A stretch of DNA of 8,610 nucleotides. It comes from a virus. Its lineage: Duplodnaviria > Heunggongvirae > Uroviricota > Caudoviricetes. The notes under the pieces were generated by a model. That model saw nothing but the letters and a program-made list of their open reading frames with translations. It had not been told where the DNA came from and did no database searches. Location of the stretch: IMG/VR virus record IMGVR_UViG_2778261121_000004; one strand, written 5' to 3'. The stretch's first letter is position 1; each line of letters starts with the position of its first letter. The translations under genes were made by a program, and so were the position numbers. Positions 1-6,788 of the stretch are shown here, piece by piece.

Positions 1-885
1 TTACTTTGCAATGAGATCGGGGTCAACTTCGCTTAACCGGCTTCGTTTTGACAGGTTGCCGGTCTTTCTTTTTTTCACTTTCGCCAGTTCTTCCGCAGAG
101 TAATGCGACGCGACATCCAGCCGTCGAAGCCCCATTTTGATGTACTCGCTGTTGATCTCAATACCAATGAATTTTCGCCCGCTGGCGACGGCTACGGCAC
201 CGGTAGTAAAGCTACCGGCAAACGGGTCGAGAACGATATCGCCTGGGTTGGAAGAGGCGAGAATAACGCGTTTCAGCAAGGCTTCCGGTTTTTGCGTCGG
301 GTGGTTTTCATATTCATCCATCAAATAACGCACGCGCGGAAAATCCCAGACGTTACCCGGTACTTTTTGATGATTGTAAGGCTGTGGAGGATTTTTGCGA
401 TAATTGATCAACGCGCGCTGCGATCCGGTTTTGGCTTCTACCAGAATAGCATCACCGTTGAACGTGTAGTTCTTTGCGTCTTTCACCATCATCAGGATGG
501 GTTCGTACATGGAGCCGTAGTGTTTTTTCGCCTGCACTCCAGAACTGTCATATGACCAGACGATGCGACTTTTGATGGTAAAAAGCTTGCGGCACTGGAG
601 ATCGATAAAGGGCATGTTTTCCGTGCTATTCATGATGTACATGCTGCCCTGCTTTTTCAGAACGCGATGGCACTCTGCAATCACTTCAAACAGCCAGTCG
701 ATAAACAGATCTTCTTTCCAGGCTTCGATCAGACCATCAAAATTTTTACCGATGTTATACGGTGGGTCGGCAAAGATCAGATCGACACTTTCGGCGGGGA
801 GCTTTTTAAGTTCGGTTAATGCATCACCCTGGATGATGGTCTTTGCTTCATTACCAAATCGGGTCGGTTCACATCCTGTTCTCAT
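1..885 (-). CDS. yhdJ: DNA adenine (N6) methyltransferase YhdJ, complete
   Basis: 294-aa ORF with the DPPY catalytic motif (FADPPYNIG) and an AdoMet-binding C-terminal motif (VLDPFAGSFTTG). The sequence matches what I recall of enterobacterial YhdJ. ATG at 885 is preceded by AGGGAG with a 5-nt spacer; the track's GTG at 891 is 2 codons upstream. Stop at 1..3. Confidence 0.9.
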   Translation of the reverse strand: MRTGCEPTRFGNEAKTIIQGDALTELKKLPAESVDLIFADPPYNIGKNFDGLIEAWKEDLFIDWLFEVIAECHRVLKKQGSMYIMNSTENMPFIDLQCRKLFTIKSRIVWSYDSSGVQAKKHYGSMYEPILMMVKDAKNYTFNGDAILVEAKTGSQRALINYRKNPPQPYNHQKVPGNVWDFPRVRYLMDEYENHPTQKPEALLKRVILASSNPGDIVLDPFAGSFTTGAVAVASGRKFIGIEINSEYIKMGLRRLDVASHYSAEELAKVKKRKTGNLSKRSRLSEVDPDLIAK

Positions 886-910
886 GGTCACTCCCTTTGT
901 GACACCTATA

Positions 911-946
911 AAAAAGGCGCTTCCCCATGCCGAGTAGCGCCTTTTT
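911..946. terminator. Bidirectional rho-independent terminator hairpin, probably the native fis terminator
   Basis: Stem GGCGC (916-920) pairs with GCGCC (937-941), flanked by A5 (911-915) and T5 (942-946). On the minus strand it reads as a GC stem followed by a T-run, between the fis remnant and yhdJ. Confidence 0.55.
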
Positions 947-970
947 AATCAAGCATTTAGCTAACCTGAA

Positions 971-987
971 TTAGTTCATGCCGTATT
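971..987 (-). other. Remnant of fis 3' end (Tyr-Gly-Met-Asn-stop); probable attachment-site core and island boundary
   Basis: Plus-strand ttagttcatgccgtatt is the reverse complement of AATACGGCATGAACTAA, which encodes ...YGMN-stop, the C-terminus of Fis as I recall it. It lies 85 bp upstream of yhdJ, where fis natively sits. The next in-frame codon upstream is a stop (986-988), so only the last codons are present and the sequence diverges into island DNA. Confidence 0.5.
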
Positions 988-1115
988 AACAAAAGCGGTG
1001 TTTTTGCTCGTTTATACCAGTTCAATGTTGTTCACATAACATTATGATTTTACTGGTTTACTCCTTATTTCTTGTTCATTACTTCGTGCTGTTGTTCGTC
1101 TTCGTACATAACAAT

Positions 1116-1137
1116 GTGTAGTCAGCGGTGTAGTCAG
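1116..1137 (+). repeat. Tandem direct repeat GTGTAGTCAG x2 upstream of int; candidate recombinase arm-type or regulator binding sites
   Basis: Exact 10-bp copies at 1116-1125 and 1128-1137, about 45 bp upstream of the int start codon. Confidence 0.45.
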
Positions 1138-1182
1138 TGCTATGCTGTTTCTTAAATGAACTAACTTTAAAGGCTCATAGCT

Positions 1183-2406
1183 ATGGCCGGTGGAACGAAC
1201 AAATTAAGCGATGCATCATTGCGTAAAATGATAGGCCGTGCCAGTCCCTCAGACAACTTTTATGCAGATGGGGATGGCTTAAGCATAAAAGTGTCAAAGG
1301 TTGGTGTTTTAACCTGGTACTTCACCTGGCGAACAGGAGGACGCTCAACCGCTCCCCAGCGTCTAAAGCTGGGAAACTATCCAGATCTTTCTATAAAGGC
1401 CGCGAGAGAAAAGCGAGAACAATGCCGCGCGTGGTTGGCTGAAGGGAAAAGTCCAAAGCATCAGTTCAACATTACTATGCAAGAGACGCTAAAGCCGGTG
1501 ACAGTGAAGGAAGCTCTGGAGTACTGGATCACAGAGTACGCCAATGATAACCGGGCGAACGTCGAGCGACATAAGGCTCAATTTGGAAAACACATTTATC
1601 CTTACATCGGAAATCATCCCCTTGCCCTTTGTGAGACGCGCCATTGGCTAGAGTGCTTTGATCGCACAAAGAAAGAATCACCAGTAGCTTCCGGCTATCT
1701 CCTCCAGATGTGTAAGCAGGCGCTTAAATTCTGTCGTGTTCGTCGCTATGCAATAAGTAATGTGCTTGATGATCTCACCGTGCAGGATGTAGGCAAAAAG
1801 CAGAGAAAACGAGATCGGGTACATACCGATCAGGAAATATGTGATATCTGGCATGCCATGTCAGGCAAGAGGTTTAAACCTTACTATGCCTCGTTACTCC
1901 AGATCCTGATCATGTTTGGATGTCGTTCACAAGAGGCGAGATTATCAGAGTGGAGTGAGTGGGATTTCAAAAACTGGATCTGGACTGTTCCAAAAGCACA
2001 TAGTAAAGGTGGTGAAAAAATAGTTCGCCCGGTCCCGGAGGCCGCCAGACCTTTTATCGAATCCTTGTTCAAGCAACATAAAGATAGCGGTCTTCTGTTA
2101 GGCGAAATCAAGAAACCGGAAGCGGTCAGCCAGTGGGGGAGAACTTTGTATAAGAAGCTCGACCATACAGAGTCATGGACTCTTCACGATTTACGCCGGA
2201 CTTTTTCCACTACGCTTAATAATATAGGGATTGCACCACACATTGTAGAGCAACTCTTAGGGCATACCTTAGGCGGCGTGATGGCTATTTATAACCGAAG
2301 TCAGTACCTGCCTGAAAAACTTGACGCACTGAATAAGTGGATGGAACGGTTAGGATTGCTTACCGCCAATCATACGAATGTAACTATTCTAAAGGTAGCA
2401 AAATGA
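1183..2406 (+). CDS. int: Site-specific tyrosine recombinase/integrase, P4-like
   Basis: 407 aa. N-terminal arm-binding-type domain, and C-terminal catalytic signature: box I Arg (FGCRSQEA), HDLRRTF, LLGH, and catalytic Tyr in AIYNRSQY. SD AAAGG sits 9 nt upstream of ATG 1183. Confidence 0.92.
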   Translation: MAGGTNKLSDASLRKMIGRASPSDNFYADGDGLSIKVSKVGVLTWYFTWRTGGRSTAPQRLKLGNYPDLSIKAAREKREQCRAWLAEGKSPKHQFNITMQETLKPVTVKEALEYWITEYANDNRANVERHKAQFGKHIYPYIGNHPLALCETRHWLECFDRTKKESPVASGYLLQMCKQALKFCRVRRYAISNVLDDLTVQDVGKKQRKRDRVHTDQEICDIWHAMSGKRFKPYYASLLQILIMFGCRSQEARLSEWSEWDFKNWIWTVPKAHSKGGEKIVRPVPEAARPFIESLFKQHKDSGLLLGEIKKPEAVSQWGRTLYKKLDHTESWTLHDLRRTFSTTLNNIGIAPHIVEQLLGHTLGGVMAIYNRSQYLPEKLDALNKWMERLGLLTANHTNVTILKVAK

Positions 2407-3158
2407 CAAAAAGTGAATGGCCTCGCGTATATTACCCTCTTGATCTTGCTGCCAAAAAGATGAATTGTTCCACTGAGGATATATTGCATCTAGGGGCCAC
2501 AAATAGACTGGAAATATGCGCATATATTAAAGGTGTGGAATTGTCTCCCGATGGTTTTAACTTTAATGTTACTTTTGATGAAGATGACGAATATGTGTTA
2601 AATGAAATAACTGAAAATAAGTGTATTATAAGTGATCTATATCAGATAATACTTTTTGAATATAATGACAACACAATAATTAGCGAAGTTGATTTGAAAC
2701 CACGTGGGTGGTATGCGAATGATTTAAATGGTTTTTTTGCTATGTGTTCAAATGATTTGGTTGACATTGAACTTTCTGGAGGACTCACTTCCTTTGAAGT
2801 GAATATTAGTGAGTTATCTACCCCTAACATTGATGATAGAAAACCCATTGAAATTACCAATATTAATGATCTTGTCATTACTGAAAACATGCTGGTAGTT
2901 ATGGGCAAGGAGATAGAAAACTTTAATGCATCAGTTTCACCAAGTATTAGAGGTAAAATAGACGCCCCAAAAACAGAGGCTAAAAAAGCAGAACTAATAT
3001 ACTGCCTTTTAAAAATGATCCCTGAGTTATCTGGTGTTGATTTAGATAACACTCCGATAACGAAAATTACCTCCATGATAGAAGAAGTTGCAGCAAAAAA
3101 AGGTGTTGCTCTTCCGTCAACGCACTGGCAAACATGGAAAAGGTATTTACGGAGGTAG
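2403..3158 (+). CDS. Hypothetical protein, AT-rich cargo gene, translationally coupled to int
   Basis: 251 aa. ATG 2403 overlaps the int stop (ATGA, 2403-2406) and has an AAAGG SD. The central part is about 28-32% GC by eye, against about 50% for flanking genes. Composition is rich in D/E/N/I/K, which is protein-like. No motif recognised. Confidence 0.6.
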   Translation: MTKSEWPRVYYPLDLAAKKMNCSTEDILHLGATNRLEICAYIKGVELSPDGFNFNVTFDEDDEYVLNEITENKCIISDLYQIILFEYNDNTIISEVDLKPRGWYANDLNGFFAMCSNDLVDIELSGGLTSFEVNISELSTPNIDDRKPIEITNINDLVITENMLVVMGKEIENFNASVSPSIRGKIDAPKTEAKKAELIYCLLKMIPELSGVDLDNTPITKITSMIEEVAAKKGVALPSTHWQTWKRYLRR

Positions 3159-3160
3159 CA

Positions 3161-3190
3161 TGTGATATCACATATAGGTTGTGTGATATC
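3161..3190. promoter_or_regulatory. Operator-like palindrome TGTGATATCACA plus a repeated half-site, upstream of alpA
   Basis: Perfect 12-bp palindrome at 3161-3172. The half-site TGTGATATC recurs at 3182-3190, 21 bp away (two helical turns). Confidence 0.4.
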
Positions 3191-3254
3191 GAACATTGCT
3201 GAACGTGATTTAATAAGAATGCCCTCGAACTTCAATAAACGAGGGCAATACTTA

Positions 3255-3479
3255 ATGAACCAACTTAACACACACCAAAATCATTCCGATCGTATTATCC
3301 GTGAAACCGAATGCCGCCACATGACTGGCCTATGCCGTACTACTCGCTATCTCATGGAGAAAAAGGGGGATTTTCCGGCGCGTCGCCAGCTCGGGGGGCG
3401 TTCTGTCGGGTGGCTCTTATCGGAAATTACCACTTGGCAGTTAAGCCAACCTAAAGTAGAAACCGGCAAAGCGGCATAG
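3255..3479 (+). CDS. alpA: AlpA-family phage transcriptional regulator (excisionase-like HTH)
   Basis: 74 aa. The C-terminal half (GGRSVGWLLSEITTWQLSQ) matches the AlpA family's conserved (G)xRSVGW...EIxxW motif. SD GAGGG (3241-3245) lies 9 nt before ATG 3255. The track's longer GTG-3162 form would add 31 uncharacteristic residues and bury the palindrome in coding sequence. Confidence 0.8.
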   Translation: MNQLNTHQNHSDRIIRETECRHMTGLCRTTRYLMEKKGDFPARRQLGGRSVGWLLSEITTWQLSQPKVETGKAA

Positions 3480-3496
3480 GTGCGGATATGTCACAT

Positions 3497-3524
3497 AAAA
3501 CAAAAGCGGCCTTGCAGGGCCGCC
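3497..3524 (-). terminator. Rho-independent terminator for the minus-strand RHH gene
   Basis: GC hairpin GCGGCC (3507-3512) / GGCCGC (3519-3524) with a 6-nt loop. On the minus strand it is followed by TTTTGTTTTA (complement of 3497-3506). No T-run on the plus side. Confidence 0.45.
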
Positions 3525-3615
3525 AGTGCAATCACACTAAACCTATTCATATCACCAGGCTGATCGCTGGTGGTCAAATCGTGAGCAAAGCTCTAAAAAT
3601 AGCTTCGGAACAAAA

Positions 3616-3795
3616 TCAGCCTTTTGGCTCGATGCCACGTTGCTTCAGTTCTTTACGGACAATTCGTTTGATCCAAGCGGCTAAAGACTCGTCACCGTCC
3701 TGTTGTTGGGCTTTTTCCATTAATTCTCTGAGTTCCGGATCAAGCCGGAATTGGAATGGAGGATTGCCTCGCCTTTCATTTTTGTGTGTTGACAC
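3616..3795 (-). CDS. Small ribbon-helix-helix-like DNA-binding protein; candidate repressor of the island
   Basis: Absent from the ORF track. Minus-strand translation is VSTHKNERRGNPPFQFRLDPELRELMEKAQQQDGDESLAAWIKRIVRKELKQRGIEPKG (59 aa), with a beta-strand then two helices as in RHH proteins. GTG start at 3795 has an AGGTG SD 8 nt upstream. It is the only minus-strand gene in the island and is divergent from the downstream operon. Confidence 0.5.
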   Translation of the reverse strand: MSTHKNERRGNPPFQFRLDPELRELMEKAQQQDGDESLAAWIKRIVRKELKQRGIEPKG

Positions 3796-3841
3796 GTCAA
3801 TTACACCTGTTGTAGTGTGTTTATGTGTAATGACACATTAC
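3789..3841. promoter_or_regulatory. Divergent promoter/operator region between the RHH gene and the Icd-like operon
   Basis: Inverted repeats TTGAC-ac-GTCAA (3789-3800, overlapping the RHH start) and GTAATG-aca-CATTAC (3827-3841). TGACAC recurs at 3790-3795 and 3831-3836, and there are several TGTGT runs. Confidence 0.35.
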
Positions 3842-3924
3842 ATACAAATGACAAAAAAGACAACGCCCCGGAGTGCGGGAACACTGCCGAGGCGTCTAAC
3901 CAAGACGTTAAATGGAGTAACGCT

Positions 3925-4131
3925 ATGGCTTCCGCTAATAGTACCACATCCGCGCGCCCTGAAAATCGCGTGTTTCTCTTCCTTGCCTTATCCCGTGCCG
4001 ATCAGAACGCCAGGCCACACCGTGAGCAAGTTATTGCCACCAGCGAACGCGAAGCGCGTCTTATGCTGGTGGGCCGCTACGTGCTTTCTTTTGCTGGTCG
4101 CCTGCCAGTATCAGAGGCTTATCATGAATAA
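3925..4131 (+). CDS. Small protein, Icd-like (P4 immunity-region cell-division-inhibitor-like) family, paralogue 1
   Basis: 68 aa. SD GGAG (3914-3917) lies 7 nt before ATG 3925. It shares the pattern F-x-[FL]-F-x-A...AD...A-x-[ST]-E-x-[ED]-AR...L-x-G...L-[ST]-F-x-A-[RK]-L with the 4519 gene. The family name is from memory, not a search. Confidence 0.6.
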   Translation: MASANSTTSARPENRVFLFLALSRADQNARPHREQVIATSEREARLMLVGRYVLSFAGRLPVSEAYHE

Positions 4132-4522
4132 GCCAATTACCGCTGCTGCTTACCTGCTTCACACTGCTGATATGTGCGCCTCGCAGGTGTGCCAACTGGT
4201 TGAATGCCACGACGCCGCCGGACACCATGCGCTATGTCAGACCTTATCGGCGGGGCTAATCGCGCTTAAGCTGGCTTGTTATGCGGATATCCAGTCTTCA
4301 CCAGACGCGGAAACAATACCGCCGCTTAGCCTGGAGGCTTACTGGCCTGATAATAGTTTGACGCTGGAATACTGCGAATCACTGGTAAAGGTGCTGTCTG
4401 TTGATGCCTTGCCCCGTGAAGTGATCCAGCCGCTTACCGGGCTGTTGCATGACCTGGTGAATATGCTGGCCGACCAGTGGAAAGAAGAACTGAAAACCAC
4501 AGATGCAGGGGGGCAATCATGA
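4124..4522 (+). CDS. Hypothetical protein (132 aa)
   Basis: SD AGAGG sits 6 nt before ATG 4124. It overlaps the upstream stop by 8 bp and the downstream start by ATGA. The upstream part of the track's 344-aa ORF (3488-4123) has non-protein-like composition and overlaps the minus-strand RHH gene. Confidence 0.6.
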   Translation: MNKPITAAAYLLHTADMCASQVCQLVECHDAAGHHALCQTLSAGLIALKLACYADIQSSPDAETIPPLSLEAYWPDNSLTLEYCESLVKVLSVDALPREVIQPLTGLLHDLVNMLADQWKEELKTTDAGGQS

Positions 4523-4837: not shown

Positions 4838-5161
4838 ATGGCTAAAAAAATCAATCAGGTTAAACCTGAGGGCAAAACTCACCCTTTAATTGAGATTAAC
4901 ACCCGCTGGAAAGATAACTGGGGTATCAAAATCACTATTTGCAAGGTGGAAGAAAACCGCGTGATGTATATCCGCGACGGGTACGAACATGAATGCGTAT
5001 GCTCACCGGATCGCCTGCGTCGTGAGTTTTCTTTCCTCCCGGAAGAGAGCAAGGAATGTCAGGCTGCTGCCATCGCCAGAGGCCGTAAACGCGCCGCCGA
5101 ACTGCGTCATAGTTTGCCGGTTACTTTTGGATCGGCTGGCTGGGATAAGGGGCTGGTATGA
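4838..5161 (+). CDS. Small protein paralogous to the N-terminal domain of the downstream Rep ATPase
   Basis: 107 aa. SD AAGG sits 9 nt upstream. The motifs W-K-D-N-W-G-I-K-I and RHSLPVTFGSAGWD match W-E-E-D-W-G-L-K-I and RHNLPITYGSDGFD in the N-terminus of the 5158 gene. The stop overlaps the next start (ATGA). Confidence 0.65.
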   Translation: MAKKINQVKPEGKTHPLIEINTRWKDNWGIKITICKVEENRVMYIRDGYEHECVCSPDRLRREFSFLPEESKECQAAAIARGRKRAAELRHSLPVTFGSAGWDKGLV

Positions 5162-6573
5162 AGAACGCGCCGAATCTTAAACATCAACCGAAAGATAAAC
5201 ATGTTGAGGTCATTATCTTTGCCGGGGCTGATGCCTACGATCACGCTAAAACATGGGAAGAAGACTGGGGATTAAAAATTGCCGCAGATAAAACACCGCC
5301 TGTCTGGCTGGGGCCAAAGCAACTGGCAGAGCTGGCGAACCTGAACATTATCGACCAAGGGCGTAAGTACGCCCGCGTCTATCTTGCCGGAGACATTGAA
5401 TCTGTCCGGATTAACTCCATTGCTGAAAAACTGGCGCTGGCGGGCGTAGAGGAAGCGAAATTATATAAGGGAATACCTGATAAGCACCCGGAAGACTGGC
5501 ATGATTATCTGGGACGCCTACGGGGCGCTGCGGAGGTGCAGGAGGATGCGAATACTACCCGGCATAACTTGCCGATCACTTATGGATCAGATGGATTTGA
5601 CCGGGAGCAGGACTACACGCTGAAGAATTATCTTCCCGCTAACAGTCTGTGCAGTATTTACGGCCCCAGCGGAAGTTATAAAAGTTTCCTTGCTGTGTCG
5701 TGGGCCTGCCATATTGCCGCAGATCGTAAGTGGGCTGGTAAAAGTGTTTCTGGTGGTACGGTTATGTACATTGTCGGGGAAGGTGGGATCGGTGTGCCTC
5801 GCCGGGTAAAGGCATGGGAAAATATTCACCAAAGGAAGGTAACCAACCTGGCCCTGGTTAACCGTCCTGTTTTTCCGGTGCGTTGCGAGGAGGTGCAGGA
5901 AGTGGTTAAAGCTGCGCGTGATATCCAGAAAGAAAAGGGGCAGCCGGTACAGTTGATTGTTATTGATACTCTTGCTCGTTGTTTTGGTGGTAACGATGAG
6001 AACGACGCGAGAGACATGGGGGCATTTATCGAAGGGTGTGACACCATTAAACGAGAAACAGGGGCCACTGTGCTGGTGGTACATCATTCGGGGAAAGACG
6101 ATAGTAAAGGCGCTCGCGGATCCAGTTCGTTCCGTGCCGCTCTGGATGCAGAGTTTAATGTTAGGCGTGAAGGAGATGGTGGGGCCATTATACTTACCTG
6201 TACAAAAATGAAGGATGCAGAAGAACCGCGCCCCGCCGCCTTTGACCTGAAAACGGTGAACCTGTTTACTGATCGCGATGGTGAAGCAGTTGCTTCTCTT
6301 GTGCTACATGATGTGGAGCGTGAACCACGCGACATTGATCCAGAACTGGCTGACGTCAAACACCTGACTGAGAACCATGCGGCGTTGTGGCAATGTATTC
6401 GGAGCAGAAAGGCCAAAGGTGAGGTATGCAACCGTGCTGTGCTGCGTGACGATATCATAGCGATGGAAGGGGAGAACGGGCGGAAAGCCTTTACACGTTG
6501 GCTGAATAAGCTGGTCAAAGATGGGCTAATCAAAATTGATGACAGTGGCGAAGTAATTATGCTGAAGGGCTGA
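5158..6573 (+). CDS. Replication initiator ATPase/helicase, RecA-like P-loop NTPase (RepA/AAA_25-type) with N-terminal domain of unknown function
   Basis: 471 aa. P-loop GPSGSYKS (around nt 5662-5685), Walker B QLIVIDT, and the downstream VLVVHHSGKD motif typical of RepA/DnaB-like RecA-fold ATPases. SD AAGGGG sits 5 nt before ATG. The gene is followed immediately by an iteron array. Confidence 0.85.
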   Translation: MKNAPNLKHQPKDKHVEVIIFAGADAYDHAKTWEEDWGLKIAADKTPPVWLGPKQLAELANLNIIDQGRKYARVYLAGDIESVRINSIAEKLALAGVEEAKLYKGIPDKHPEDWHDYLGRLRGAAEVQEDANTTRHNLPITYGSDGFDREQDYTLKNYLPANSLCSIYGPSGSYKSFLAVSWACHIAADRKWAGKSVSGGTVMYIVGEGGIGVPRRVKAWENIHQRKVTNLALVNRPVFPVRCEEVQEVVKAARDIQKEKGQPVQLIVIDTLARCFGGNDENDARDMGAFIEGCDTIKRETGATVLVVHHSGKDDSKGARGSSSFRAALDAEFNVRREGDGGAIILTCTKMKDAEEPRPAAFDLKTVNLFTDRDGEAVASLVLHDVEREPRDIDPELADVKHLTENHAALWQCIRSRKAKGEVCNRAVLRDDIIAMEGENGRKAFTRWLNKLVKDGLIKIDDSGEVIMLKG

Positions 6574-6576
6574 AAA

Positions 6577-6788
6577 GTGCGCGAAAAATGCGCATGGTGC
6601 GCGGAATGGGCTAGAAATACATGTTTTGCGCACTTTCTTTGTATATATACAGAAAAAGTGCGCGGAATGGGTAAAATCATCCTGAAACCCGCATCATTAC
6701 TGGCTTTAGGCAATGCGCACTATGTTTAATCTTGCGCACCTAAGTGCGCGCCCGAATAAGTGCGCGGGAAAATGCGCGAGGTGCGCAG
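6577..6788. repeat. Iteron array with AT-rich tract; candidate origin of replication of the element
   Basis: Eleven copies of the core TGCGC[AG] in about 210 bp: GTGCGCG at 6577, 6597, 6658, 6744 and 6760; TGCGCA variants at 6588, 6627, 6713, 6732 and 6781; TGCGCG at 6773. The 14-mer GTGCGCGGAATGGG occurs twice (6597-6610 and 6658-6671), and TAAGTGCGCG twice (6741-6750 and 6757-6766). An AT-rich tract lies at 6633-6657. Confidence 0.6.

What the first reader, a model, noticed from the sequence alone, without database searches (positions are those of the whole stretch)
2403..3158. AT-rich cargo ORF translationally coupled to the integrase
A 251-aa ORF starts with an ATGA overlap on the int stop. 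Its ends have normal GC, but the central ~600 bp drops to roughly 30% GC by eye, the sharpest compositional anomaly in the window. This suggests a recently acquired or rapidly diversifying central domain. I cannot assign a family. Satellites often carry anti-phage or helper-interference genes as cargo, so this is the best candidate for an uncharacterised accessory function such as defence, abortive infection or a helper-sensing repressor.
Basis: partly seen in the sequence, partly recalled or inferred. Interest (0 to 1): 0.7.

Follow-up and report, generated by a model that had tools for sequence, protein, structure and literature searches.

The report
Candidate alpA regulator in phage satellite
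The AT-rich gene after the integrase is a real, uncharacterised three-part protein that always sits beside its own matching pair of DNA sites in front of the satellite's master switch gene alpA, so it is most likely a regulator of satellite induction rather than a defence gene.

Summary
ORF 2403-3158 (251 aa) overlaps the int stop by ATGA and is the sharpest GC trough in the window (35% against 47%; centre 32%). The window is an 8.5-kb PICI-type phage satellite inserted between yhdJ and fis in E. coli GPEC1186.

The ORF belongs to an unnamed family from Enterobacterales satellites, with 77 representatives at 50% identity and no match in Pfam, PADLOC, PHROGs or NCBIfam. Members always lie in the order int -> ORF -> alpA. 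The protein has three modules that recombine independently: a conserved excisionase/MerR-type winged helix, a hypervariable centre, and a conserved three-helix C-terminal module.

In all 18 loci examined, two copies of a 9-12-bp motif, usually palindromic and 19-25 bp apart, lie at or across the ORF's stop codon, just upstream of alpA. The motif sequence changes with the C-terminal module, not with AlpA or the winged helix. It is absent from sister islands that have nearly the same AlpA but a different gene, or no gene, in that slot.

I read this as a gene-plus-operator cassette that controls alpA, most likely as a repressor that senses the helper phage. That reading rests on comparative inference only. 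Low GC is a family-wide trait, not a sign of recent acquisition. The minus-strand ORF is not conserved.

The parts
908..987 (.). attL copy of the ~80-bp perfect direct repeat that bounds the island. The attR copy lies outside the window, next to fis.
   Evidence: L001 13506-13585 equals 22005-22083. Empty-site strains match the window only up to 987-1003.
1090..1138 (.). Doubled GTGTAGTCAG motif, probably integrase arm-type sites. It is repeated near attR.
   Evidence: family D2 (84% identical copy near attR). It resembles the 'doubled motif' described for fis PICIs in PMC10111431.
1183..2406 (+). int, a P4-type tyrosine integrase of 407 aa.
   Evidence: Pfam Phage_integrase 1e-16 and Arm-DNA-bind_3 4e-16. 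RefSeq annotation.
2392..2398 (+). Shine-Dalgarno-like AAGGTAG for the ORF, embedded in the 3' end of int.
   Evidence: Sequence. AAGGTGG is conserved at the same position in homologous loci.
2403..3158 (+). The ORF of the finding (251 aa), a three-module protein of an unnamed family.
2403..2531 (+). Module 1 (aa 1-43): conserved excisionase/MerR-type winged helix-turn-helix.
2532..2957 (+). Module 2 (aa 44-185): hypervariable, beta-rich centre and the GC trough (31.9%). Candidate input or sensor domain.
   Evidence: Mean 27% identity, and length differs by about 90 aa between members. No fold match.
2958..3155 (+). Module 3 (aa 186-251): conserved three-helix C-terminal module whose class co-varies with the downstream repeat motif.
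3161..3172 (.). Operator candidate O1: perfect palindrome TGTGATATCACA, 3 bp after the stop codon.
   Evidence: Conserved at or overlapping the stop codon in homologous loci.
3182..3193 (.). Operator candidate O2: TGTGATATCGAA, 21 bp from O1. Its right half-site is degenerate in this island.
3215..3220 (+). Inferred -10 element of the alpA promoter (AAGAAT). It puts the O2 centre near -39.5 and the O1 centre near -60.5.
   Evidence: An nAGAAT-like hexamer is positionally conserved and abuts the hairpin in alignment A4. This is inference; no TSS data.
3220..3247 (+). Conserved stem-loop (TGCCCTCG...CGAGGGCA) directly before alpA. The 3' arm holds the alpA SD (GAGG).
   Evidence: I4. RNA fold -14.7 kcal/mol, z -5.6. 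Conserved, with a T-run in most loci, including islands that lack this ORF.
3255..3479 (+). alpA, the master activator of Gram-negative PICIs.
   Evidence: Pfam Phage_AlpA 3e-16. RefSeq annotation. Role from PMC6092414.

Best explanation
The ORF encodes a sequence-specific DNA-binding regulator of the satellite.

Shown or directly observed: the ORF is made together with Int, through an ATGA overlap and an SD inside int. It has three modules: an N-terminal excisionase/MerR-type winged helix, a hypervariable centre, and a conserved three-helix C-terminal module.

Strongly inferred: the gene travels as a cassette with two cognate binding sites about two helical turns apart. These sites start at its own stop codon and sit over or just upstream of the inferred -35 region of the alpA promoter.

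Inferred: by occupying these sites as dimers, the protein controls transcription of alpA, the activator that launches excision and replication of Gram-negative PICIs.

Speculative: it most likely keeps alpA off in the resting island. The hypervariable centre would then be the input domain through which a helper-phage product releases it. That would make it the functional counterpart of the Stl/Rpr master repressor of Gram-positive PICIs.
For: 1. It is a real, conserved gene. The family has 77 representatives at 50% identity, mostly full-length matches. The plus-strand frame is intact in all homologues, and the antisense frame is not conserved.

2. Synteny is fixed. int -> ORF -> alpA holds in every locus where both neighbours are visible, in most of them with the ATGA overlap on int. 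This is true in capsid-forming PICIs and other PICI-type islands of Escherichia, Citrobacter, Klebsiella, Erwinia, Buttiauxella and Hafnia.

4. In all 18 distinct loci, two copies of a 9-12-bp motif lie 19-25 bp apart at or across the ORF's stop. In a formal test, 16 of 16 loci had such a pair, against about 7.5% of control and shuffled segments.

5. The motif differs between about seven classes: GTGAWWTCAC, GYAATATTKC, GGAAAT(T)TCC, GGAATATTCC, GGCGATATCGCC, AAACTCTCC and AAACTTTC. The class is separated cleanly by C-module identity: same-motif pairs are at least 37.5% identical and different-motif pairs at most 35.9%. It is not separated by the N-module (ranges overlap, 36-67%) or by AlpA (30-78%).

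6. Natural controls. L015 and L017 have an AlpA closely related to that of L002 (L015's is nearly identical), but their slot holds an unrelated DUF6387 gene. L018 and L019 have no slot gene. None of the four has the paired repeat motif.

7. An out-of-sample prediction made from C-module class was confirmed in L032 and L033.

8. Each site is itself palindromic in at least five classes, and one class uses direct repeats. That fits protein dimers and not an RNA hairpin.

9. Position: with the conserved -10-like element that abuts the alpA hairpin, O2 centres near -39.5 and O1 near -60.5.

10. The class motifs are otherwise essentially unique in each locus, so the only paired target is at alpA.

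11. The literature leaves this role open. Whether Gram-negative PICIs have a global repressor is 'unclear', and the phage inducer of alpA is unknown (PMC6092414).
Against: - There is no experimental evidence. DNA binding and its target are inferred from comparative genomics only.
- The motif lies within 0-40 bp of the C-module coding sequence, so some of the co-variation could be simple linkage.
- Related PICIs work without this gene. EcCICFT073 appears to have alpA directly after int and is still helper-inducible. So the protein cannot be the universal switch.
- The -10 element and TSS are inferred, and the simple promoter scan found no sigma-70 site there.
- A position near -40/-60 also suits an activator.
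- In this island O2 has a degenerate half-site, the alpA hairpin lacks its T-run, and the packaging module is largely missing, so this copy may be partly decayed.
- Another small regulator, the YlcI/YnfO Arc-like protein at 3616-3795 on the minus strand, is also a candidate repressor in these islands.
Confidence: 0.5

Rival explanations
1. Same DNA-binding protein and the same sites, but it acts as an activator. Bound near -40 and -60 of a promoter that lacks a good -35, it recruits RNA polymerase to alpA once its variable centre has sensed a helper-phage signal.
For: Site centres near -39.5 and -60.5 resemble class II / class I activator positions. The alpA promoter has no recognisable -35. 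alpA expression is known to be switched on by the helper phage through an unknown route.
Against: In other motif classes the proximal site appears to sit closer to, or inside, the core promoter (L026 and L028 sequences). The gene is co-expressed with int, the resting-state gene. Islands without this protein still activate alpA.
Confidence: 0.2
2. It is accessory cargo with a function unrelated to alpA, such as anti-phage defence, abortive infection or helper interference. The repeats are then its own regulatory or module-boundary signal.
For: The int-alpA slot is variable: this family, DUF6387, or empty. Alleles are many and each is rare: 1, 11 and 19 of 5,426 genomes. The centre is hypervariable. 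This pattern is typical of conflict genes. By analogy, SaPIs carry accessory genes between int and stl.
Against: No PADLOC, Pfam or PHROGs match and no enzymatic or toxin-like domain. The only recognisable fold is DNA-binding. An autoregulatory site would be expected upstream of the int-ORF transcription unit, but the sites lie downstream, on the alpA promoter region, at a conserved position even with two different AlpA types.
Confidence: 0.12
3. It is a recombination directionality factor or architectural cofactor for the integrase it is coupled to.
For: The N-terminal fold is closest to excisionases (Pukovnik Xis, RdfS, Tn916 Xis, AlpA-family Xis). It is translationally coupled to int.
Against: It is three to four times larger than typical RDFs and has two extra modules. 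The class motifs do not occur near attL or elsewhere in the loci. AlpA, an excisionase-family protein, is already present and is required for excision in related PICIs.
Confidence: 0.08
4. The repeat pair is an RNA-level element, such as a 3' stem-loop or terminator of the int-ORF transcript. The protein does something else.
For: The two copies can pair as RNA: -18.2 kcal/mol, z -4.4 in the window, and -13.5 kcal/mol, z -4.4 in L002.
Against: A hairpin does not require each arm to be self-complementary, yet each copy is its own palindrome in at least five independent classes. L021 has direct repeats that cannot pair. Several loci have mismatching centres (GTGATATCAC / GTGATTTCAC). No T-run follows the pair.
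Confidence: 0.07
5. The real gene is the minus-strand ORF 2642-3271, or the region is non-coding.
For: A 209-aa minus-strand ORF exists in this window.
Against: It is not conserved: antisense stop-free stretches are 47-103 aa in nine homologous loci. It has no family hits. The plus-strand protein is conserved over its full length in many taxa and folds with pLDDT 80.6.
Confidence: 0.01

Closest known systems
Stl / Rpr master repressors of SaPIs and other Gram-positive PICIs
   Same: Proposed logic: a satellite-encoded DNA-binding protein in the same transcriptional direction as int. It holds the induction genes off through operators at the switch promoter, and has a highly variable non-DNA-binding region that diversifies between islands and would receive the helper-phage signal.
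   Different: No sequence or fold homology was found. Stl uses a Cro/CI-type HTH, whereas this protein has an Xis/MerR-type winged helix plus an unclassified three-helix module. The gene is co-directional with its target and separated from it by a hairpin, not divergently transcribed. The target is an activator gene (alpA). Nothing about derepression has been shown.
Excisionase / HTH_17 / AlpA-Vis-TorI winged-helix proteins
   Different: It is 251 aa with two further modules. Its cognate repeats lie at the alpA promoter and not in the att arms. Sequence similarity is marginal: HTH_17 E = 0.0026 in the best of 36 members.
P2 Cox and 186 Apl (excisionases that double as switch repressors)
   Same: A precedent for an Xis-fold protein in P2/P4-type elements that also regulates a developmental-switch promoter.
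MerR-family regulators
   Same: An N-terminal winged helix of the same fold class, palindromic targets, and a separate signal-receiving region.
   Different: No long dimerising coiled coil. The sites are not in a 19-20-bp -35/-10 spacer. Pfam MerR hits are insignificant (E = 0.15).
DUF6387 proteins of sister PICIs
   Same: They occupy exactly the same slot, with the same 4-bp overlap on int, upstream of the same alpA hairpin.
   Different: They are unrelated in sequence (hhalign probability 0.1%) and are not followed by a paired repeat motif.

Membership tests
Stl/Rpr-type PICI master repressor | Sequence or fold homology to Stl/Rpr (Cro/CI-type HTH N-terminal domain) | tested here: not met
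Stl/Rpr-type PICI master repressor | Binds operators at the promoter that controls the induction genes | tested here: inconclusive
   Paired cognate repeats upstream of alpA co-occur and co-vary with the protein. Binding itself was not shown.
Stl/Rpr-type PICI master repressor | Transcribed divergently from the genes it represses | tested here: not met
   The ORF and alpA are on the same strand, separated by a conserved stem-loop.
Stl/Rpr-type PICI master repressor | Repression lifted by direct binding of a helper-phage protein | not testable with these tools
   Only indirect evidence: the centre is hypervariable and modularly exchanged.
Excisionase / recombination directionality factor (HTH_17, AlpA/Vis/TorI) | Winged-helix fold of the Xis type | tested here: met
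Excisionase / recombination directionality factor (HTH_17, AlpA/Vis/TorI) | Small single-domain protein (about 50-100 aa) | tested here: not met
   251 aa with three modules.
Excisionase / recombination directionality factor (HTH_17, AlpA/Vis/TorI) | Binding sites in the att arms next to the core | tested here: not met
   The class motifs occur as a pair only at the ORF stop, about 2 kb from attL. There are none near att.
MerR family | Significant match to the MerR HTH profile, plus a C-terminal coiled-coil dimerisation helix | tested here: not met
   Pfam MerR best E = 0.15 in 2 of 36 members. The model shows a beta-rich centre and a three-helix bundle, with no long coiled coil.
Known anti-phage defence systems (PADLOC-DB 2.0) | Match to any defence-system protein model | tested here: not met
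   No hit at E <= 1 for the ORF or its neighbours.
Gram-negative PICI (host element of the gene) | P4-type int at the left end, alpA, a replication gene with adjacent ori, mostly unidirectional genes, flanking att repeats, no tail or lysis genes | tested here: met
   int, alpA and RepA/AAA_25. 80-bp direct repeats. GTGCGCG iterons after repA. Annotation. The fis site is a known PICI site (PMC10111431).
Capsid-forming PICI (cf-PICI) | Own capsid, protease, portal, connectors, HNH, TerS and TerL | tested here: not met
   This 8.5-kb island has only one protein with a weak major-head match (phrog_617, 5e-06) and no portal or terminase. Sister islands L002 and L006, which carry the same family, do have the full module.

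The most novel reading that the evidence does not exclude
This family is the missing helper-sensing master regulator of a large subset of Gram-negative PICIs and capsid-forming PICIs. It would be an Stl analogue built from different parts. A previously unrecognised three-helix module reads allele-specific operators on the alpA promoter. The hypervariable centre binds different helper-phage proteins and so sets which phages can induce each island.
Probability: 0.3. Interest if true: 0.8.

Novelty: new variant of a known kind. Interest (0 to 1): 0.62.

Why it matters
How helper phages switch on alpA in Gram-negative PICIs, and whether these satellites have a master repressor at all, are stated open questions (PMC6092414).

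This family gives a concrete, testable candidate for part of the answer. It is a protein with an obvious partner operator at the alpA promoter, and natural allele classes predict which protein should bind which site. If confirmed, three things would follow. It would explain induction specificity in many Escherichia, Klebsiella and Citrobacter satellites, including capsid-forming PICIs now being developed as delivery vehicles. It would define a new DNA-recognition module. It would also provide a set of orthogonal repressor-operator pairs.

If instead the protein proves irrelevant to alpA, the cassette is still an unusually clear case of a gene that carries paired sites across its own stop codon.

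Tried and rejected
Searches with no result:
- Profile searches of the ORF against Pfam, PADLOC, PHROGs and NCBIfam gave nothing significant. DUF7632 at E = 0.079 was ignored.
- PDB sequence searches with the single protein and with family profiles gave only marginal hits. XRE at E = 0.17 and acyl carrier protein with per-domain E > 1 were treated as noise.
- Foldseek against the PDB found nothing with E <= 0.001.
- tblastn against 50,697 phage and 72,556 plasmid records found no match.
- Rfam found no family in the window.
- Literature searches found no description of the family. EcCIMP1_002, another gene between int and alpA, is a different, small protein.

- The AFDB50 fold library was unavailable.
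- The locus search with the broad alignment failed for lack of a conserved stretch. The narrower alignment returned only four species genomes and four viral contigs.

Ideas rejected:
- AlpA as the binder of the palindromes. Near-identical AlpA alleles occur with and without the motif, and different AlpA types occur with the same motif.
- The N-terminal winged helix as the specificity determinant. L008 and L009 share the same recognition-helix sequence but have different motifs.
- An RNA hairpin reading of the repeat pair.
- Homology to YfjH of CP4-57 or to DUF6387.
- The minus-strand ORF.
- A second operator at the int promoter. None was found.
Full report
**Context.** The window matches one place in one of 5,426 complete E. 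coli genomes, the chromosome of chicken isolate GPEC1186. There, an island of about 8.5 kb lies between yhdJ (window 1-891, minus strand) and fis. It is bounded by about 80 bp of perfect direct repeat: window 908-987 and a second copy next to fis. Its genes run mostly in one direction:
- int (1183-2406)
- the ORF of the finding (2403-3158)
- alpA (3255-3479)
- a minus-strand YlcI/YnfO Arc-like gene
- Icd-like genes
- DUF4222
- a RepA/AAA_25 helicase (5158-6573), followed by GTGCGCG iterons
- a few small genes
- a protein with a weak major-head match

This is the layout of a Gram-negative phage-inducible chromosomal island (PICI). The fis site is a documented, abundant PICI integration site (PMC10111431).

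**Check of the observation.** The ORF, its length and the ATGA overlap with the int stop are exactly as described, and RefSeq calls the same CDS. An AAGGTAG Shine-Dalgarno-like element lies 7 nt upstream, inside int. GC is 35.1% for the ORF against 47.0% for the window, and 31.9% for codons 44-185. The lowest 600-bp window of the whole sequence is 2501-3100 (32.5%). The lowest 600-bp window starting outside 1900-3200 is 41.8%. The one inaccuracy is that the ends are not at normal GC; they are about 39%.

**It is a real gene of an unnamed family.** A word-indexed search found 17 clusters, and an exhaustive HMMER search found 77 representatives at 50% identity. Most align over their full length, and every source that names them calls them 'hypothetical protein'. 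The plus-strand frame is intact in every homologue. No curated library recognises the protein (Pfam, PADLOC, PHROGs, NCBIfam). No phage or plasmid record encodes it.

**Architecture.** Alignments show three regions:
- a conserved N-terminus (about aa 1-43; consensus LPERLYYPLxxAAKKLGCxxxDIxHxGA)
- a centre that varies in both sequence and length
- a conserved C-terminus (about aa 186-251; consensus PKTxAKKxELIxxLLKLIPE...THxQTWxKYLGR), with a second, distantly similar 'type B' version in some members

The three modules recombine independently. For N / centre / C, P0010 vs P0013 are 94 / 90 / 55% identical, while P0013 vs P0029 are 42 / 23 / 98%. The low GC, however, is shared by all nine homologues measured (32-39%, beside int and alpA at 44-53%). 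It is a property of the family and does not mark recent arrival in this island.

**Fixed position.** In every locus where the neighbours can be seen, the gene lies between a P4-type integrase and alpA. In most it has the same ATGA overlap and an AAGGTGG-type SD in the end of int. This holds in capsid-forming PICIs with a full HK97 head and terminase module (L002, L006) and in other PICI-type islands of several genera. The slot itself is variable. Sister islands carry an unrelated DUF6387 protein there, also overlapping int by 4 bp, or nothing but a 420-bp gap.

**The key finding: a cognate pair of DNA sites.** Three bases after the stop codon lies a perfect palindrome, TGTGATATCACA (3161-3172). 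A second copy, TGTGATATCGAA, lies 21 bp further on (3182-3193). No other match with up to two mismatches exists in the window.

The same arrangement occurs in all 18 distinct loci examined: two copies of a 9-12-bp motif, 19-25 bp apart, beginning at, across or just inside the end of the ORF. In a formal test, 16 of 16 loci had such a pair, against about 7.5% of random or shuffled 70-bp segments.

The motif is not constant. It falls into about seven classes (GTGAWWTCAC, GYAATATTKC, GGAAAT(T)TCC, GGAATATTCC, GGCGATATCGCC, AAACTCTCC, AAACTTTC/GAAAGTTT). The class is cleanly separated by identity of the C-terminal module: same-motif pairs are at least 37.5% identical and different-motif pairs at most 35.9%. 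The N-module ranges overlap (36-67%), and so do the AlpA ranges (30-78%).

Natural controls settle the AlpA alternative. L015 has an AlpA almost identical to that of L002, and L017 a closely related one, but both carry DUF6387 in the slot and neither has the paired motif. L018 and L019, with no slot gene, also lack it. L009 has a canonical AlpA and a canonical N-module but a type-B C-module and a different palindrome.

A prediction made from C-module class alone was then confirmed. The P0051 locus has GGAAAT...ATTTCC sites embedded in its last 40 coding bases, and the P0090 locus has a GGAAATTCC / GGAAATTTCC pair at its stop.

The two copies could pair as RNA. But each copy is itself a palindrome in at least five classes, one class uses direct repeats, and centres often mismatch. 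All of this fits sites for a dimeric protein and not a hairpin.

**Relation to alpA.** In an alignment of the ORF-alpA spacers, the order is fixed: site 1, site 2, about 28 variable bases, a -10-like hexamer (nAGAAT; AAGAAT at 3215-3220 here), a very stable stem-loop whose 3' arm contains the alpA SD, usually a T-run, then the alpA ATG (fold z-scores -4.6 to -7.8). The stem-loop is also present in the DUF6387 islands, so it belongs to alpA and not to the ORF. If the hexamer is the -10, the sites centre near -39.5 and -60.5. These promoter assignments are inference. A simple sigma-70 scan found nothing there, as expected for an activator-dependent promoter.

According to the literature, AlpA is the auto-activating master switch of Gram-negative PICIs. 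[quoted passage not shown]

**Most likely mechanism.**
- Shown: a conserved three-module protein coupled to int. A DNA-binding fold at its N-terminus. A pair of repeats at its 3' end that co-occurs with the gene and co-varies with its C-module.
- Strongly inferred: the protein binds those repeats as dimers on one face of the helix.
- Inferred: this controls alpA transcription.
- Speculative: it represses alpA, and the hypervariable centre receives a helper-phage signal, as Stl does in SaPIs.

I give the whole statement 0.5. Of that, 'DNA-binding regulator acting at these sites' is higher, about 0.65, and 'helper-sensing repressor' is lower, about 0.3-0.35.

**An unresolved oddity.** Specificity tracks a module with no known DNA-binding fold, while the winged helix stays constant. 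One possibility is that the constant module reads the A/T-rich centre common to most motif classes and the C-module reads the variable flanks. I could not test this.

**Caveats.**
- The co-variation could partly reflect physical linkage, because the sites abut the C-module coding sequence.
- The number of independent motif classes is small, about seven.
- Related PICIs such as EcCICFT073 function without this gene, so at most it is an added control layer in a subset of islands.
- The copy in this window may be decaying: site 2 has a degenerate half-site, the alpA stem-loop lacks its T-run, and the island lacks almost all of the packaging module, although its att repeats are perfect.

**Novelty.** The family is undescribed in every library and paper I could search. 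The proposed role, a mobile-element regulator with a variable input domain, is a known kind. I therefore rate it a new variant of a known kind. Its interest is raised because it makes the open question of alpA control directly testable.

Noticed in passing
window 3220-3247 (and L002, L004, L008, L012, L015, L017): A very stable stem-loop abuts the alpA start codon. Its 3' arm contains the alpA Shine-Dalgarno GAGG, and most loci have a T-run after it. It looks like an intrinsic terminator or attenuator that would insulate alpA from int read-through. A -10-like hexamer sits directly at its 5' edge, so alpA-promoter transcripts may start inside the 5' arm and escape it. The window copy lacks the T-run.
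   Followed up: partly
L015:2466-3461, L017:2510-3364: In sister PICIs at the rcnR site, the int-alpA slot holds an unrelated DUF6387 protein (284-331 aa). It also overlaps int by 4 bp and has no paired repeats after it. This is a second uncharacterised family in the same position.
   Followed up: partly
window 6573-6800: At least eight GTGCGCG-type iterons in both orientations lie immediately downstream of repA. This is probably the island's replication origin.
   Followed up: partly
window 908-987 and 1090-1138; L001 21953-22083: An ~80-bp perfect direct repeat bounds the island. A doubled GTGTAGTCAG motif occurs near both ends and is probably a set of integrase arm sites. It matches the 'doubled motif' reported for fis PICIs.
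   Followed up: partly
window 7657-8610 and L001 20255-22000: The island is only about 8.5 kb. After repA it has one 317-aa protein with a weak match to the C-terminal half of a major head protein (phrog_617, about 4-5e-06), two Rha pseudogene fragments, and no portal, protease or terminase. It is either a decayed capsid-forming PICI or a minimal satellite.
   Followed up: partly
window 3616-3795 (minus strand): A YlcI/YnfO family protein with an Arc-like repressor match (phrog_228, 2e-06) is oriented against the rest of the island, just downstream of alpA. It is conserved in sister islands with and without the ORF. It is another candidate for a resident repressor.
   Followed up: no
L021:811-1596 and 1636-2379: One metagenomic island carries two tandem paralogues of the family between int and alpA. 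They have similar C-modules and are followed by direct (not inverted) AAACTCTCC repeats 21 bp apart.
   Followed up: no
L022:3740-3804, L032:2150-2212, L026:3741-3771: In type-B alleles the repeat sites lie inside the coding end of the gene (GGAAAT...ATTTCC encodes the conserved '...EI...ISKK' tail). The DNA sites and the protein tail therefore constrain each other.
   Followed up: partly
L031:3645-4601 (E. coli K-12 CP4-57): In the prophage where AlpA was first described, the int-alpA gap holds yfjH (318 aa). It is transcribed divergently from alpA with only 43 bp between the two starts, and it is unrelated to this family (hhalign probability 0.1%).
   Followed up: partly
window 3488-4522: The mechanical ORF list shows a 344-aa plus-strand ORF here, but RefSeq annotates several smaller genes instead (Icd-like x2, a hypothetical protein, and the minus-strand YlcI/YnfO). 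The long ORF had no PADLOC hit and is probably not real.
   Followed up: no
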